Shown here in pieces: positions 41,892 through 51,164 of a stretch of DNA of 64,000 bases (its first letter is position 1; each line of letters begins with the position of its first letter). A model generated the notes under the pieces. The model had not been told where the DNA came from and did not search any database. It was given only the letters and a program-made list of their open reading frames with translations. A program made the translations under genes and the position numbers. Origin of the DNA: Escherichia coli. Lineage in GTDB: Bacteria; Pseudomonadota; Gammaproteobacteria; Enterobacterales; Enterobacteriaceae. The DNA lies in the NCBI RefSeq assembly GCF_003790525.1, contig NZ_CP033635.1; one strand, 5' to 3'.

Positions 41892-43317
41892 TAATGCCGA
41901 TCAGTTAAGGATCAGTTGACCGATCCAGTGGCTGTGTAAGAATCCGGAAACGCTCACTTGTTTCCGGATTTTTTTATGCACATTGGACAGGCTCTTGATC
42001 TGGTATCCCGTTACGATTCTCTGCGTAACCCACTGACTTCTCTGGGGGATTACCTCGACCCCGAACTCATCTCTCGTTGCCTTGCCGAATCAGGTACTGT
42101 AACGCTACGCAAGCGCCGTCTTCCCCTCGAAATGATGGTCTGGTGTATTGTTGGCATGGCGCTTGAGCGTAAAGAACCTCTTCACCAGATTGTGAATCGC
42201 CTGGACATCATGCTGCCGGGCAATCGCCCCTTCGTTGCCCCCAGTGCCGTTATTCAGGCCCGCCAGCGCCTGGGAAGTGAGGCTGTCCGCCGCGTGTTCA
42301 CGAAAACAGCGCAGCTCTGGCATAACGCCACGCCGCATCCGCACTGGTGCGGCCTGACCCTGCTGGCCATCGATGGTGTGTTCTGGCGCACACCGGATAC
42401 ACCAGAGAACGATGCAGCCTTCCCCCGCCAGACACATGCCGGGAACCCGGCGCTCTACCCGCAGGTCAAAATGGTCTGCCAGATGGAACTGACCAGCCAT
42501 CTGCTGACGGCTGCAGCCTTCGGCACGATGAAGAACAGCGAAAATGAGCTTGCTGAGCAACTTATAGAACAAACCGGCGATAACACTCTGACGTTAATGG
42601 ATAAAGGTTATTACTCACTGGGACTGTTAAATGCCTGGAGCCTGGCGGGAGAACACCGCCACTGGATGATACCTCTCAGAAAGGGAGCGCAATATGAAGA
42701 GATCAGAAAACTGGGTAAAGGCGATCATCTGGTGAAGCTGAAAACCAGCCCGCAGGCACGAAAAAAGTGGCCGGGACTGGGAAATGAAGTGACAGCCCGC
42801 CTGCTGACCGTGACGCGCAAAGGAAAAGTCTGCCATCTGCTGACGTCGATGACGGACGCCATGCGCTTCCCCGGAGGAGAAATGGCGGATCTGTACAGTC
42901 ATCGCTGGGAAATCGAACTGGGATACAGGGAGATAAAACAGACGATGCAACTGAGCAGGCTGACGCTGAGAAGTAAAAAACCGGAGCTTGTGGAGCAAGA
43001 GCTGTGGGGTGTCTTACTGGCTTATAATCTGGTGAGATATCAGATGATTAAAATGGCGGAATATCTGAAAGGTTACTGGCCGAATCAACTGAGTTTCTCA
43101 GAATCATGTGGAATGGTGATGAGAATGCTGATGACATTGCAGGGCGCTTCACCGGGACGTATACCGGAGCTGATGCGCGATCTTGCAAGTATGGGACAAC
43201 TTGTGAAATTACCGACAAGAAGGGAAAGGGCCTTCCCGAGAGTGGTAAAGGAGAGGCCCTGGAAATACCCCACAGCCCCGAAAAAGAGCCAGTCAGTTGC
43301 TTAACTGACTGGCATTA
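41892..43317 (+). mobile_element. Insertion sequence IS4 (1426 bp, apparently intact)
   Basis: Terminal inverted repeats taatgccgatcagttaagg (left) and gcttaactgactggcatta (right, reverse complement taatgccagtcagttaagc); single transposase ORF; 13-bp direct repeats on both sides. Confidence 0.9.
41976..43304 (+). CDS. insG: IS4 transposase
   Basis: 442-aa translation [40 protein letters not shown]... matches IS4 transposase as I recall it. Confidence 0.9.
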
Positions 43318-43342: not shown

Positions 43343-43561
43343 TCACATCCACATAATTTGCTGCCCTGACGGCAACGGGTGCGGCCTCACGGCGTGGACT
43401 TCTCCCGGCTTCACGATGTATCTCTGTACCGACTCATAAGTGATGAACGTGGCGCTGCAATTCACGTTCTGGCACTGGTGATAACGCTCTTTTGTCGTGT
43501 CAGTGATATAGCGGCTTGTACGCGCATGTGCGGCATGCTGGCATAAAGGACAATGAAACAT
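43343..43561 (-). CDS. ogr: P2 late-gene transcription activator Ogr (zinc-finger)
   Basis: 72-aa translation MFHCPLCQHAAHARTSRYITDTTKERYHQCQNVNCSATFITYESVQRYIV...; Cys4 zinc finger. Confidence 0.95.
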   Translation of the reverse strand: MFHCPLCQHAAHARTSRYITDTTKERYHQCQNVNCSATFITYESVQRYIVKPGEVHAVRPHPLPSGQQIMWM

Positions 43562-45299: not shown

Positions 45300-47747
45300 T
45301 TAACCGTCATGCATCATGCTGGCACGGGCGCGCACACGTTTATCCCGCTCGTATTTTTCGAGCGCATCCTGTAACTGGCGGTCGAGCTGTGTCCCCGGCG
45401 CAGTACCACCCGTCAGGCTGATGTGATATTCGTTTTTACTCTGGTCCACATAAGAGCGGCCAGCCGGTGCCGTGACCGGCTGATAAGCCTGATAGCCTGC
45501 ATAAGAGCTGGTCGCCGGAATATAACCACCGCTGCCATACGTGGCGGCTTGAGTTCTGGCGGCGGTCTGGTCAAGTGTGTCTGACTCTTTGTTGATAACA
45601 CCGAGTTTTTCCAGTACCCAGTCAATACCGCTGCGCAGTTTGTTGAACGCATTAAGCGGCAGCATCAGCGCGTCAGCCAGTGCCTGCCCGAACATGACCC
45701 CCGTGTCACGGCAACTGTTCAGGGAGTCCTGAGTGGCTTTGACCGGGGCAATCAGGTTTTTAAACCACTGCCACGCGGCCTGTAACTTTTCACCCAGCCA
45801 GTCAAACACCGGCTTAAGTGGCGTGAACAGTTCCCCCACCGGCGCAAATGCCACTTTCAGCCCTTCAACCACACCGCCAAAGAATGCGCTGACAGGCTCC
45901 CAGTATTTACGGATAAGCAACGCCCCGGCGACAATTGCGGCCACCACGGCCACAACCGGCCAGCTAATAACCCCGATGGCGGTCATAACAGCACTGCCAA
46001 CCGTCGTGAAGACTGCCCCCATTGCGCCTGCTGCCGCGATGATGGCATTGATGCCGGTGATAACCGGCCAGGCTACGAGGCCAATGGCACCGATGATGCC
46101 AGTCAGCGCCAGCGCGCCACCGGCAATGATGCCGATGGTTGACGCCAGTGATTTGTTTTTCTGGATCCAGCCGTCGAGTTTTAACACATACTTTGTGGTC
46201 GTCTGCGTGAGCTTACGCAGCGCGCCTTCCTGCTGGTCAAACAGGTCAGTCCCCACTGCCTCATAAGCGGACTGAAACTCTTTAAAGTCACCGCCTAGGT
46301 TGTCCTGCATGATATTTACCAGCTCGGCGGTCTTCCCGTCTGAGGATTTAAACGCAGCGGTCAGTTTGTCCAGCTTTCCGGTTGAGGCGGCAGTCATCAG
46401 CACGGCGGCGGCTGAGCTGGCCTCCTCCCCGAAAATAGTTTTCATGTATTCAGCCTGCTGGGCAGTACCGAGCCGGTTTTTCTCAAAACTGGCCTGCATT
46501 TCTTTCAGAATGGTAAATATTGGCCGGGTGTTTCCCTTGCTGTCTGAGGTTTTCACTCCAAGCTCTTTGAGTGCATCCCATGCTTTTCCCGTCGGTGCCT
46601 GCAGGCGGCTTAACACGGCACGGCTTCCCGTCCCCGCCATTGAGCCTGTGATTTTTGCATCATGCAGCGCCCCGACCATTGCGGCGGTTTCTTCAATGCT
46701 GACACCGGCATTTTTTGCCACAGGTGCGGCATAGGTCAGCGCATCGCTCATGCCGTCAAAATCGGCGGCGGTTTTGTTCATCGTCATGGAGAGAACATCC
46801 CCGATATGAGCGACCTTATCGTTTGAAAGCTGAAAGGCGGATTTCATCCCCATCAACAGGGCGGCGTTTTCTTCCATCGTGCGGCGGTTCGCCAGCGCCA
46901 TATTCAGCGTGACCGGCGTTGCCGCCTGAATGGCATCAACATCCCCACCCGCTTTCGCGATGATTATCTGTGCACCGGCCGCATCATCCGCCGAGGCGGC
47001 GGTATTGTCGCCGAGCTGGCGCGCCTGTTTGCGTAGTGCGGTCATTTCGGCGGAGTCTTTTGCCACTCCGAGCACGGCCAGCAATTCTGAGTTTTTCTGC
47101 GCAAACTCATAACCTGGCATCAGCAACTTAACTCCGGCCATCGTTCCCGCCGCCGCAATCCCCACACCGGCAGCGCCCACTGAGGCCATATTTCCGGCCA
47201 GTTCCTTGCCTGCCTGATAACGCTGTTTTACTGCGTTAAGTTTTGCCTGTTGCGCACTGACACGCGCCAGCGCGTCACGCTGACGGTTAAGCTGTGCGGT
47301 GGTTTCACTGATACGGTTTTTCAGTCCCTGCTCATCATGTGCAAGATTGCGGGTATTAATTCCCACAACGGCCAGTTCCCGCTGCTGGCGTTTAACGGAA
47401 TCCGTCAGGCGGTTATATTTCGCCTGTAAGTCCTCCGCCGCACGCTTCGCGGATTCCAGCACTTTCGCCTGAGCACGTGTCGGACGTTCGGTGTTTTTAA
47501 ACTGTGTGGCAAGGGCTTCGGCCTCCTGCCGTGCCTTTTCAAGTGCATGACCAGTCACGGCGAGCTGTGCACTGGTCTTGCGAAATCCCTCAATACGGGA
47601 TGCCTGACCGTTCAGCTCACGCAGTGATTTTTGTGTTTCCCGGATATCCCCCGACAGCGATTTGCTCGCTGTGCGGATGGATTTAAACGGGCGGGATGCC
47701 TGGTCAACAGCCCTGAGCAATACCTGTAATTTTACATTGTTACTCAT
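45300..47747 (-). CDS. T: Tail tape measure protein (gpT)
   Basis: 815 aa, coiled-coil N-half, Gly/Ala-rich hydrophobic segments; downstream of E/E'. Confidence 0.9.
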   Translation of the reverse strand: MSNNVKLQVLLRAVDQASRPFKSIRTASKSLSGDIRETQKSLRELNGQASRIEGFRKTSAQLAVTGHALEKARQEAEALATQFKNTERPTRAQAKVLESAKRAAEDLQAKYNRLTDSVKRQQRELAVVGINTRNLAHDEQGLKNRISETTAQLNRQRDALARVSAQQAKLNAVKQRYQAGKELAGNMASVGAAGVGIAAAGTMAGVKLLMPGYEFAQKNSELLAVLGVAKDSAEMTALRKQARQLGDNTAASADDAAGAQIIIAKAGGDVDAIQAATPVTLNMALANRRTMEENAALLMGMKSAFQLSNDKVAHIGDVLSMTMNKTAADFDGMSDALTYAAPVAKNAGVSIEETAAMVGALHDAKITGSMAGTGSRAVLSRLQAPTGKAWDALKELGVKTSDSKGNTRPIFTILKEMQASFEKNRLGTAQQAEYMKTIFGEEASSAAAVLMTAASTGKLDKLTAAFKSSDGKTAELVNIMQDNLGGDFKEFQSAYEAVGTDLFDQQEGALRKLTQTTTKYVLKLDGWIQKNKSLASTIGIIAGGALALTGIIGAIGLVAWPVITGINAIIAAAGAMGAVFTTVGSAVMTAIGVISWPVVAVVAAIVAGALLIRKYWEPVSAFFGGVVEGLKVAFAPVGELFTPLKPVFDWLGEKLQAAWQWFKNLIAPVKATQDSLNSCRDTGVMFGQALADALMLPLNAFNKLRSGIDWVLEKLGVINKESDTLDQTAARTQAATYGSGGYIPATSSYAGYQAYQPVTAPAGRSYVDQSKNEYHISLTGGTAPGTQLDRQLQDALEKYERDKRVRARASMMHDG

Positions 47748-47891
47748 TCGTGTTTCCGCTTCGCCGGAGCGCCTTTTCGCGCCATGTGATGAGTTCGGTC
47801 AGGCTCATGGGATACAGTTCTGATGGCGGCCAGTGAAATATCACTGCCACATCCGCCATCAGGTCATCGACCGAGAGATTTTTCGGAAACG

Positions 47892-48167
47892 TCACTGCAC
47901 CGAGTTCGGCGACAAAAAACCGACCACCTTACCGGCCAGCGCCACAAGGTCAGGCAGTTCCAGCGCGGCGACCTCCTGTTCGGTCAGCATCGGTGCCGTC
48001 ATGCGCGGCAGCACTTTAATCAGTGCATCGACTTCGGAGTTCGCGACCGCAGCCAGACTGACACCGCGCAGCGTCCCGGCATTGGGTTTCATCAGCGTGA
48101 CCTGTTCGATAACCTGCTCACCACGCTTGACCGGATTGTCCAGGGTAATCACATTTTCTTTGTTCAT
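47892..48167 (-). CDS. E: Tail assembly chaperone gpE (E' made by -1 frameshift)
   Basis: 91-aa ORF between FII and T; slippery heptamer near its 3' end. Confidence 0.8.
   Translation of the reverse strand: MNKENVITLDNPVKRGEQVIEQVTLMKPNAGTLRGVSLAAVANSEVDALIKVLPRMTAPMLTEQEVAALELPDLVALAGKVVGFLSPNSVQ
47913..47919 (-). other. Candidate programmed -1 frameshift slippery site (T TTT TTG) for E/E'
   Basis: Minus-strand ggttttttgtc about 7 codons before the gpE stop; P2 makes E+E' by -1 frameshift at TTTTTTG. Confidence 0.5.
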
Positions 48168-48223: not shown

Positions 48224-48742
48224 TCACAGGCCGATATTGCGGCGGTGTTGCTCCAGCCGGTCGACGCCGTTCACCTTCTCAATCATGTTGATGGTGTCGA
48301 TTTCGACCAGCTCCTTACCGTCCATCGTCAGCCGGAAATAGGTGCAGACCACGGAGATTTTCGACTCAGTGTCTTCTCCCTGTTTACCCTCGCCAGTGTC
48401 GATTTCTTTCTGACGTCCACGCATGACCACTTCGACGGCCACCGTTTCGCCGGTATCGTCACGCTGGTAAGAGCCTGCAAAACGAATCGGCACAGCATCC
48501 ACACCGGTTGCGGCGTAAAGCTCCCAGATAACCGAATCCGGGAAGCCACCGAGTGACCACTCCATTGACAGCGCATCGTCATCAAGGCCGAGGTCTACCG
48601 GTGCGCTGCCGTTCATCCCCGCACCGCGATAGTTTTCGAGCTTACGGGTCAGTTTTGGCAGCGTGACGGACTTTGCAACGCCCTGATAGCTGTAGCCGTT
48701 CAGAAAGACGTTCATTAACTTGAGTTTGCGCGGCATTGCCAT
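48224..48742 (-). CDS. FII: Tail tube protein (gpFII)
   Basis: 172 aa; position after FI. Confidence 0.9.
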   Translation of the reverse strand: MAMPRKLKLMNVFLNGYSYQGVAKSVTLPKLTRKLENYRGAGMNGSAPVDLGLDDDALSMEWSLGGFPDSVIWELYAATGVDAVPIRFAGSYQRDDTGETVAVEVVMRGRQKEIDTGEGKQGEDTESKISVVCTYFRLTMDGKELVEIDTINMIEKVNGVDRLEQHRRNIGL

Positions 48743-50264: not shown

Positions 50265-51164
50265 TCAAAGAATTAGCACTTGCTCTTCACTAGAAACTAT
50301 GGTTCTGACTTCACGCTCAAATATTGGATCCATTATCATTTTTCTATTTGTTGGAATAGTAAATTTACCGAGTACCATGACAATGCTACTCAACGGAAAT
50401 AATTTTGGAGTAACATTTCCTAATTGAATCGTAGGATATATATTAAAGCCCCCTTTTATCCTCATTGGCGAACCTTCAATGAAGTGTCGATAATTAAATT
50501 TCGCCATAGGGATTCTCGCCACATGCACTTTCATAATTACAGCAACCTGAGCTATTTTTACTTTCTGGAGGTAAGTTGACAATCGTTCTAACTGCGTTGT
50601 TTCATAGAAAAAATCAGACCACGTTACAGTACTTGTTCCAGTAACAATTTTTATGCTGTTTCTCTTGTTGGGGTGAGCTTTTCCATATTCATAGATCTCC
50701 CGTAAGCTATCCATGTTCTTCACATAAGGGGCTTTCCGACCTCTCTTGACATAAACGCGGTCTGTAGTATCAGAAGGTGGATTTGCCTGCATAGCTGCAG
50801 CTTTTCTGCTTAATTTAGAGATATCATCTTCATCGAGTATATGTATACGGAATATATTATTACCTGTGGCAAGCGCACGGCTGATATCATGACTGGAATC
50901 ACTTGCATAAATTGTATTCAATCCTGAAGTTCCATACTGGCATAATTTGTCATGCGTGAAATTTTTTTCCAGTCTAAAGAAGGCGGGGATATGCAAGGTT
51001 TTATTAAAACTCCGACGAATATGGCTTTTGACATACACCAAATGAGCAGAGCAATTTGGGTCAGGACATTTGAGTGGATAGGGATTAACACTATAATTAA
51101 AAGTATTTACATTTACTAAAATCTGATTGTTATCAATAGCCTGAGTTATACGAATACCACTCAT
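50265..51164 (-). CDS. AT-rich cargo (moron) protein at the P2 Z/fun position between G and FI; candidate phage-exclusion protein
   Basis: 299-aa ORF with markedly lower GC than flanking tail genes; occupies the slot where P2 carries the T5-exclusion gene Z/fun; no family recognised. Confidence 0.6.
   Translation of the reverse strand: MSGIRITQAIDNNQILVNVNTFNYSVNPYPLKCPDPNCSAHLVYVKSHIRRSFNKTLHIPAFFRLEKNFTHDKLCQYGTSGLNTIYASDSSHDISRALATGNNIFRIHILDEDDISKLSRKAAAMQANPPSDTTDRVYVKRGRKAPYVKNMDSLREIYEYGKAHPNKRNSIKIVTGTSTVTWSDFFYETTQLERLSTYLQKVKIAQVAVIMKVHVARIPMAKFNYRHFIEGSPMRIKGGFNIYPTIQLGNVTPKLFPLSSIVMVLGKFTIPTNRKMIMDPIFEREVRTIVSSEEQVLIL

What the first reader, a model, noticed from the sequence alone, without database searches (positions are those of the whole stretch)
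47750..48167. Candidate -1 programmed frameshift site for tail chaperone E/E'
The minus strand carries the slippery heptamer T TTT TTG (47913-47919) about 7 codons before the gpE stop, with an overlapping -1 frame that could extend toward the start of T. This matches the conserved tail-assembly chaperone frameshift of P2 and other long-tailed phages, and means the true E' product is missed by plain ORF calling.
Basis: partly seen in the sequence, partly recalled or inferred. Interest (0 to 1): 0.3.

Follow-up and report, generated by a model that had tools for sequence, protein, structure and literature searches.

The report
Known P2 tail-chaperone frameshift site

Summary
On the minus strand, gene E (48167-47892, 91 aa) contains T_TTT_TTG (47919-47913) in the slippery phase, six sense codons before its stop. 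The -1 frame then stays open for 57 codons, to a TAA (47742-47740) that overlaps the start of tape-measure gene T.

The predicted 142-aa fusion differs from P2 gpE+E' by one residue. The DNA is identical to P2 from E codon 66 to beyond the T start, and RefSeq P2 annotates a -1 frameshift at this heptamer.

The heptamer alone is not unusual (20 in the window, 18.8 expected). The context is what counts:
- The -1 peptide matches Pfam Phage_P2_GpE (E 2e-22) and E matches Phage_TAC_7.
- The pair lies between the tube and tape-measure genes.
- All 252 related loci examined carry an in-frame X_XXY_YYZ heptamer in the overlap (244 T_TTT_TTG), with synonymous sites frozen.

Verdict: already known, low interest.

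One small untested lead: an anti-Shine-Dalgarno-complementary AGGUGGUC sits 2 nt upstream of this intrinsically weak heptamer. It is kept in many clades but not all. No conserved downstream structure was found.

RefSeq E. coli genomes annotate E' as a separate 51-aa gene, so the fusion is indeed missed by plain ORF calling.

The parts
47892..48167 (-). Gene E (91 aa, 9.7 kDa), the zero-frame tail assembly chaperone; stop TGA at 47894-47892
   Evidence: ORF list and translation. Pfam PF10109 Phage_TAC_7 E 2.6e-12. PHROG 103 'tail protein' E 2.6e-45. Annotated gene E in P2.
47913..47919 (-). Slippery heptamer T_TTT_TTG (Phe84-Leu85 of E), the site of the -1 shift
   Evidence: Sequence. Same position as the 'site of -1 translational frameshift' in NC_001895. 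In-frame X_XXY_YYZ present in 252 of 252 related loci, 244 of them TTTTTTG. Third codon positions of GGT and TTT invariant and of TTG nearly invariant in 65 distinct P2-type sequences in which half of all columns vary.
47740..47913 (-). E' extension read in the -1 frame (G47913 read twice; 57 aa; stop TAA 47742-47740). The E+E' CDS is join(48167..47913, 47913..47740) on the minus strand, 142 aa, 15.5 kDa
   Evidence: Translation. Pfam PF06528 Phage_P2_GpE E 2e-22. PHROG 1756 E 1.4e-28. One residue different from P2 E+E'. tblastn of the fusion finds 418 phage records, each of the 40 listed matching in two frames.
47740..47895 (-). Stand-alone 51-aa 'GpE family phage tail protein' ORF from GTG 47895, as produced by ORF callers. 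It is judged an annotation artefact, being part of the E' extension
   Evidence: ORF list. RefSeq annotation of the identical segment. Weak anti-SD complementarity upstream of the GTG, -5.4 kcal/mol. Conserved -1 frame residues (VAE.G) lie upstream of this GTG.
47922..47931 (-). UAAGGUGGUC, an internal Shine-Dalgarno-like element 2 nt upstream of the heptamer. It is a candidate 5' stimulator and is unproven
   Evidence: Duplex with the 16S 3' end is -14.0 kcal/mol, in the top 2 % of 24-nt windows of the locus. That is stronger than the ribosome-binding sites of E, T, FI and FII. Kept in 30 of 32 distinct P2-type upstream variants. The synonymous-randomisation test is only suggestive: p 0.056 for the P2 cluster, median 0.24 over 25 clusters, against 0.70 elsewhere in E.
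45300..47747 (-). Gene T, tape measure protein (815 aa); its ATG overlaps the E' stop by 8 nt
   Evidence: ORF list. Pfam PF10145 PhageMin_Tail E 2.4e-45. Annotated T in P2.
48224..48742 (-). Gene FII, tail tube protein (172 aa), immediately upstream of E
   Evidence: ORF list. Pfam PF04985 Phage_tube E 2.3e-60.

Best explanation
This is the E / E+E' programmed -1 ribosomal frameshift site of the FI-FII-E-T-U-D tail operon of a P2-type (Peduovirus) prophage in an E. coli chromosome.

Most ribosomes translate E to its TGA stop and make the 91-aa chaperone gpE. A minority slip while tRNA-Phe sits on UUU in the P site and tRNA-Leu on UUG in the A site. Both tRNAs re-pair one base upstream (UUU UUU), and translation continues in the -1 frame from GUC. 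The result is the 142-aa protein gpE+E' (...VVGFL-VAELGAV...), which ends 8 nt inside gene T.

By analogy with lambda G/GT (inferred, not tested here), the shared E part coats the tape measure protein T. The rare E' domain recruits tail tube protein FII, so that the fixed low ratio of the two products controls tail assembly. Neither protein is expected in the finished virion.

Shown here: the sequence anatomy, identity with P2, both domain families, synteny, and deep conservation of the heptamer and the -1 ORF.

Taken from the literature and the P2 annotation: the frameshift actually occurs and the product is essential.

Inferred: the protein-protein roles.
For: 1. The heptamer is in the slippery phase and the -1 frame is open for 57 codons.
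2. The segment is 100 % identical to P2 across the site, and P2 RefSeq annotates E+E' with a -1 frameshift there. The fusion differs from the P2 product by one residue.
3. PMC3091744 states that in P2 the -1 frameshift occurs at TTTTTTG and yields the 91-aa E and the 142-aa E+E', citing Christie 2002 and Xu 2004.
4. The -1 peptide is a recognised protein domain (PF06528, E 2e-22) and E is a tail-assembly-chaperone family member (PF10109).
5. The pair lies between the tube and tape-measure genes.
6. All 252 related loci, in 25 clusters at 70 % identity and down to about 30 % identity to the query, have an in-frame X_XXY_YYZ heptamer in the overlap and an open -1 ORF. Distant relatives use other classical heptamers: A_AAT_TTT, G_GGA_AAG and T_TTT_TTC.
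7. Synonymous sites of the heptamer are frozen while neighbouring sites vary.
8. AlphaFold (pLDDT 91) gives one compact model with a helix (residues 71-89) running across the junction. Weak fold matches include the HK97 tail assembly chaperone 2ob9 and YqbN 3klu, and phage 'tape measure chaperone' models.
9. The roles of lambda G/GT are described in PMC5009743.
Against: - There is no expression or protein data for this prophage, so the occurrence and efficiency of the shift rest on identity with P2.
- U_UUU_UUG is intrinsically weak in E. coli reporters: 0.118 % without a stimulator, 0.247 % with the IS911 stimulators and 0.765 % with the IS3 pseudoknot (Sharma 2014, Table S3).
- No conserved 3' structure was found, so how the needed level is reached is not explained.
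- RefSeq annotates E' as a separate gene.
- The primary paper (Christie et al. 2002) could not be read here.
Confidence: 0.95

Rival explanations
1. E' is an independent small gene, translated from the GTG at 47895 into a free 51-aa 'GpE family' protein, as RefSeq and several phage records annotate it. No recoding is involved.
For: An ORF with a GTG start exists at 47895-47740 and is annotated this way in E. coli SMS-3-5 and other records.
Against: - The GTG has only weak anti-SD complementarity upstream (-5.4 kcal/mol).
- The annotated starts of this ORF differ between relatives and some records have none.
- Conserved -1 frame residues (VAE.G) lie between the heptamer and the GTG.
- This rival does not explain why the in-frame heptamer is kept in 252 of 252 loci with frozen synonymous sites.
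- P2 is annotated with the fusion as an essential protein.
Confidence: 0.03
2. The frame change is made by RNA polymerase slipping on the T6/A6 run (one extra U in a share of the mRNAs), not by the ribosome. The product would then read ...GFFVAEL... with Phe at position 85.
For: The site contains a homopolymeric run of six T. Transcriptional slippage is used by some bacterial and phage genes, as reviewed in PMC5009743.
Against: - From general knowledge, six residues is short for productive slippage by E. coli RNA polymerase.
- The seventh base is constrained: G in 244 of 252 loci.
- Distant homologues replace the run by A_AAT_TTT or G_GGA_AAG. These are ribosomal slippery heptamers and not homopolymer runs.
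- P2 is annotated as a translational frameshift.
Confidence: 0.03
3. The heptamer is a chance feature of the Gly-Phe-Leu codons, and this prophage copy no longer makes any extended product.
For: TTTTTTG is as frequent in the window as in shuffled sequence, 20 against 18.8. The heptamer is weak in reporters.
Against: - All tail operon ORFs are intact and have the P2 lengths.
- The whole FI-to-ogr block is 97 % identical to P2 over 6657 bp.
- The -1 ORF is open and identical to that of P2.
- The segment occurs in 1582 of 5426 complete E. coli genomes, mostly at 95 % identity or more.
Confidence: 0.01

Closest known systems
Bacteriophage P2 gpE / gpE+E' (NC_001895, genes E and E+E'; Christie et al. 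2002, J Bacteriol 184:6522)
   Same: Same heptamer at the same codons. The DNA is identical from E codon 66 through the T start. Both products have the same lengths (91 and 142 aa), with one amino-acid difference in the whole fusion. The neighbours are the same: FI, FII, T, U, D and ogr.
   Different: Nothing of substance. There is an N29/S29 substitution and ten further base differences in the 531-bp aligned segment (eight silent changes in E, two in the upstream non-coding stretch). The cargo gene upstream of FI differs: a 299-aa ORF replaces fun(Z).
Bacteriophage lambda gpG / gpGT tail assembly chaperones (Levin 1993; Xu, Hendrix and Duda 2004, 2013, 2014)
   Same: Same logic. Two products share an N terminus and are made by a low-level -1 shift near the end of the gene that lies between the major tail and tape-measure genes. 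The short form binds the tape measure, the extension binds the tube protein, and neither is in the virion (PMC5009743).
   Different: No detectable sequence similarity: the Pfam families differ and no lambda hit appeared. Lambda has a non-contractile tail. The protein roles of P2 E and E' are inferred by analogy, not tested here.
E. coli dnaX tau/gamma -1 frameshift (A_AAA_AAG with an upstream SD-like element and a downstream hairpin)
   Same: A -1 shift on an X_XXY_YYZ heptamer with an internal anti-SD-complementary element upstream.
   Different: The heptamer here is much weaker. No 3' hairpin lies at a working distance. The SD-like core is 8 nt from the heptamer in the dnaX register, just outside the 9-14 nt reported for -1 stimulation, and its pairing could extend to 2 nt from the heptamer. 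Its role is untested.

Membership tests
P2-type gpE / gpE+E' tail assembly chaperone pair with programmed -1 frameshift | Located between the tail tube gene and the tape measure gene of a long-tailed phage | tested here: met
   FII (PF04985) at 48224-48742 and T (PF10145) at 45300-47747 flank the pair.
P2-type gpE / gpE+E' tail assembly chaperone pair with programmed -1 frameshift | Upstream ORF belongs to a tail assembly chaperone family | tested here: met
P2-type gpE / gpE+E' tail assembly chaperone pair with programmed -1 frameshift | Second ORF in the -1 frame, overlapping the end of the first, encoding the conserved GpE (E') domain | tested here: met
   The -1 frame is open for 57 codons. 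PF06528 scores 78.7 bits against a cut-off of 23.
P2-type gpE / gpE+E' tail assembly chaperone pair with programmed -1 frameshift | In-phase slippery heptamer X_XXY_YYZ inside the overlap | tested here: met
   T_TTT_TTG at 47919-47913. Present in 252 of 252 related loci. Synonymous sites are frozen.
P2-type gpE / gpE+E' tail assembly chaperone pair with programmed -1 frameshift | The fused product is actually made and is needed for tail assembly | not testable with these tools
   Reported for P2 (annotation notes; PMC3091744 citing Christie 2002). The window is identical to P2 over the signal. There are no data for this prophage.
dnaX-like -1 frameshift signal (heptamer with a 5' SD-like and a 3' hairpin stimulator) | SD-like element 9-14 nt upstream of the heptamer | tested here: inconclusive
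   AGGUGGUC is present at -14.0 kcal/mol. It lies 8 nt away in the dnaX register, and the possible pairing reaches to 2 nt from the heptamer. It is enriched relative to the rest of E (MWU p 3e-6), but only p 0.056 against synonymous shuffles for the P2 cluster, and it is absent from the KSP20-type clade.
dnaX-like -1 frameshift signal (heptamer with a 5' SD-like and a 3' hairpin stimulator) | Stable stem-loop or pseudoknot 5-9 nt downstream of the heptamer | tested here: not met
   The 60 nt downstream give z -0.01. Mean z is -0.09 over 25 clusters. The one strong hairpin starts 50 nt downstream and is not kept in distant relatives.

The most novel reading that the evidence does not exclude
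The intrinsically weak U_UUU_UUG heptamer of P2-type phages may be boosted by a so far undescribed 5' stimulator. This would be the internal Shine-Dalgarno-like element AGGUG(G/A)UC, 2 nt upstream (window 47929-47922), which pairs with the 3' end of 16S rRNA in the elongating ribosome.

For this reading: the element is kept at the nucleotide level across clades whose amino acids differ (Lys, Glu or Gln, but always NAG-GUG).

Against it, or neutral: it is missing in one large clade, and much of it is explained by the encoded amino acids.
Probability: 0.3. Interest if true: 0.3.

Novelty: already known. Interest (0 to 1): 0.1.

Why it matters
For biology it changes nothing. The E/E+E' frameshift of P2 was described in 2002 and is the P2 counterpart of lambda G/GT.

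Its practical value is for annotation. The segment occurs in 1582 of 5426 complete E. coli genomes. In every RefSeq E. coli record listed for it, the essential 142-aa product is not annotated; a 51-aa fragment with an arbitrary GTG start is annotated in its place. A recoding-aware annotator would correct every such record.

The only open mechanistic point is how a heptamer that shifts about 0.1 % of ribosomes in reporters reaches a useful level. The upstream SD-like element is a cheap hypothesis to test.

Tried and rejected
1. Heptamer enrichment: TTTTTTG is at chance frequency in the window, so the motif alone carries no weight.

2. Downstream stimulator:
- The 60 nt after the heptamer fold no better than shuffles (z -0.01).
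- A strong hairpin (CUGAUGGCGG...CCGCCAUCAG, 47862-47820, -23.7 kcal/mol, z -3.3 in its 100-nt context) starts 50 nt downstream, which is too far to act on the slipping ribosome. It is kept only in close enteric relatives.
- Over 16 diverse phages, 61 % of its cells are paired against 58 % in shuffles.
- Over 25 clusters the 45 nt downstream have mean z -0.09.
- I therefore rejected it as a conserved stimulator. A small GCCGAAnnnGGC hairpin right after the heptamer recurs, but it follows from the conserved Ala-Glu-x-Gly codons and would lie inside the ribosome during the slip.

3. NCBIfam gave no hit for E, E' or the fusion.

5. The primary paper (Christie 2002) is not held, so no efficiency figure for P2 is quoted.

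6. Independent initiation of E' and transcriptional slippage were considered and rejected (see the rival explanations).

7. The SD-like element was tested by synonymous randomisation. It is suggestive but not significant for the P2 cluster on its own, so it is reported only as a lead.

Full report
**1. Observation**

The minus strand of the window reads ...GGT AAG GTG GTC GGT TTT TTG TCG CCG AAC TCG GTG CAG TGA. TTTTTTG lies at 47919-47913, phased (GG)T TTT TTG in the frame of a 91-aa ORF at 48167-47892. Six sense codons separate the TTG from the TGA stop.

Read in the -1 frame from the heptamer, the sequence stays open for 57 codons (VAELGAVTFPKNLSVDDLMADVAVIFHWPPSELYPMSLTELITWREKALRRSGNTNE). 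It stops at TAA 47742-47740, inside the ATGAGTAA that also holds the ATG of the next gene at 47747.

The heptamer by itself is not remarkable. There are 20 copies in the window against 18.8 +/- 4.3 in dinucleotide shuffles.

**2. What it is**

- A 551-bp query around the site is 95-100 % identical to 74 phage records, all P2-like (Peduovirus), including pro483 at 100 %.
- The same query matches 1582 of 5426 complete E. coli genomes.
- Against the P2 reference the region is 99 % identical, and identical from E codon 66 to beyond the T start.
- The whole FI-FII-E-T-U-D-ogr block is 96.95 % identical over 6657 bp.
- NC_001895 annotates gene E, a two-piece CDS 'E+E'' ('shares amino terminus with gpE; -1 frameshift; essential tail protein') and a 'site of -1 translational frameshift' at this heptamer.
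- The fusion built from the window (85 codons of E through TTG, then the -1 frame with the G read twice) is 142 aa and 15.5 kDa. It differs from the P2 product only at residue 29.
- PMC3091744 summarises the primary work: in P2 the -1 shift occurs at TTTTTTG and gives the 91-aa E and the 142-aa E+E'.

**3. Independent support from the sequence**

- E matches Pfam PF10109 (Phage_TAC_7, 'tail assembly chaperone proteins E, or 41 or 14').
- The -1 peptide matches PF06528 (Phage_P2_GpE) at E 2e-22. PHROGs agree.
- The neighbours are the sheath, tube, tape measure, gpU and gpD genes, all with the P2 lengths.

**4. Comparative support**

tblastn of the fusion finds 418 phage records, and each of the 40 listed matches as two pieces in two frames.

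I fetched 15 diverse Peduoviridae loci and three sets of IMG/VR loci. That gave 252 analysable loci, 150 distinct 75-nt contexts and 25 clusters at 70 % protein identity. Every one of the 252 has an in-phase X_XXY_YYZ heptamer inside the overlap between E and the -1 frame:

| Heptamer | Loci |
|---|---|
| T_TTT_TTG | 244 |
| T_TTT_TTC | 4 |
| T_TTT_TTT | 1 |
| T_TTT_TTA | 1 |
| A_AAT_TTT | 1 |
| G_GGA_AAG | 1 |

The -1 extension is 30-76 aa (median 57) and carries the conserved motif DDLxADIAxxFHWPP...EL..WRERA..RSG.

Within 65 distinct P2-type sequences, half of all columns vary. Yet the third positions of GGT and TTT are invariant and that of TTG nearly so, and the -1 frame is open in all 65. 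This is selection on the nucleotide sequence, as expected of a recoding signal.

**5. Mechanism**

The general view of -1 shifts on such heptamers is tandem slippage after the A-site codon has been decoded in the zero frame (PMC4066793). Here that means tRNA-Phe moving from UUU to UUU and tRNA-Leu from UUG to UUU, so the product reads ...GFL-VAEL....

The roles of the proteins are inferred from lambda G/GT. The shared part binds the tape measure, and the extension binds the tube subunit and starts its polymerisation. The low ratio is essential, and neither protein is in the virion (PMC5009743).

An AlphaFold model of the fusion is confident (pLDDT 91, pTM 0.81) and has a helix (residues 71-89) running through the junction. 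Its weak structural neighbours include the HK97 tail assembly chaperone and YqbN, and phage 'tape measure chaperone' models. This is consistent with the chaperone role but is not strong evidence.

**6. Stimulators**

U_UUU_UUG is a poor shifter in E. coli reporters: 0.118 % alone, 0.247 % with the IS911 stimulators and 0.765 % with the IS3 pseudoknot (PMC4066793, Table S3).

I found no conserved 3' structure. The one strong hairpin starts 50 nt downstream and is not kept in distant relatives.

Upstream, however, UAAGGUGGUC (47931-47922) can pair with the 3' end of 16S rRNA:

- The duplex energy is -14.0 kcal/mol, in the top 2 % of windows in the locus. That is stronger than the ribosome-binding sites of E, T, FI and FII.
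- Comparable elements occur in 11 of 16 diverse loci.
- They occur in 30 of 32 distinct P2-type upstream variants, with the Val codon always GUG and the preceding Lys, Glu or Gln codon almost always NAG.
- A synonymous-codon randomisation gives p 0.056 for the P2 cluster. The median is 0.24 over 25 non-independent clusters (Fisher 0.005). At 390 other positions in E the median is 0.70 and 0.8 % fall below 0.05 (MWU 3e-6).
- The KSP20-type clade (80 loci) lacks the element altogether.
- In the dnaX register the core lies 8 nt from the heptamer, just outside the 9-14 nt reported to stimulate -1 shifts.

I rate this an untested lead (probability about 0.3), not a finding.

**7. Rivals**

- *Independent initiation of E' at GTG 47895.* This is how RefSeq annotates it. 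It is unlikely because the upstream SD complementarity is weak, the annotated starts are not conserved, conserved -1 residues lie upstream of the GTG, and it gives no reason for the frozen heptamer.
- *Transcriptional slippage on T6.* This is unlikely because the seventh base is constrained, and because distant homologues use heptamers that are not homopolymers.
- *A dead remnant.* This is unlikely because the operon is intact.

**8. Verdict**

The feature is already known and annotated in the P2 reference. Interest is low. The practical point is that genome annotation pipelines still split the product.

Noticed in passing
window 50265-51164 (- strand): A 299-aa ORF lies between tail-fibre assembly gene G and sheath gene FI, where P2 carries fun(Z), a gene that blocks phage T5. 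Its GC content is 37-40 % against about 55 % for the tail genes. It has no Pfam and no PADLOC hit. It is 99.7 % identical to gp44 of phage Wphi and is named 'hypothetical protein' everywhere. Homology to P2 stops exactly at the F-operon transcription start. It is a candidate uncharacterised cargo or anti-phage gene in a known variable locus.
   Followed up: partly
window 47820-47862 (- strand): A strong hairpin lies inside the E' coding region (CUGAUGGCGG...CCGCCAUCAG; -23.7 kcal/mol; z -3.3 in its 100-nt context). It starts 50 nt downstream of the heptamer and is formed by the codons for LMAD and PPSE. It is kept in close enteric relatives only, and there is no convincing covariation in 16 diverse phages. 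Its function, if any, is unknown.
   Followed up: yes
window 41958-43304 (+ strand) and 43343-43561 (- strand): An IS4-family transposase ORF (448 aa) lies directly next to ogr at the end of the prophage. E. coli SMS-3-5 has the same arrangement. Homology to P2 ends at about 43318.
   Followed up: partly
L009 (Ralstonia phage RSY1, AB981169) 349-819; also L005, L013, L014, L015: Public records treat this gene pair inconsistently. RSY1 annotates one long ORF that is really the -1 frame, open by chance in GC-rich DNA. Other records annotate E only, or E plus a separate small 'GpE family' gene. Only a few records (P2, L-413C, FLC10) annotate the joined CDS.
   Followed up: partly
L084, L018, L155, L159 and one P2-type locus: A few relatives carry T_TTT_TTC or T_TTT_TTA instead of T_TTT_TTG. 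In E. coli reporters UUUUUUC shifts about ten times more than UUUUUUG when a pseudoknot is present. The near-universal choice of the weakest variant therefore suggests selection for a very low E+E': E ratio.
   Followed up: no
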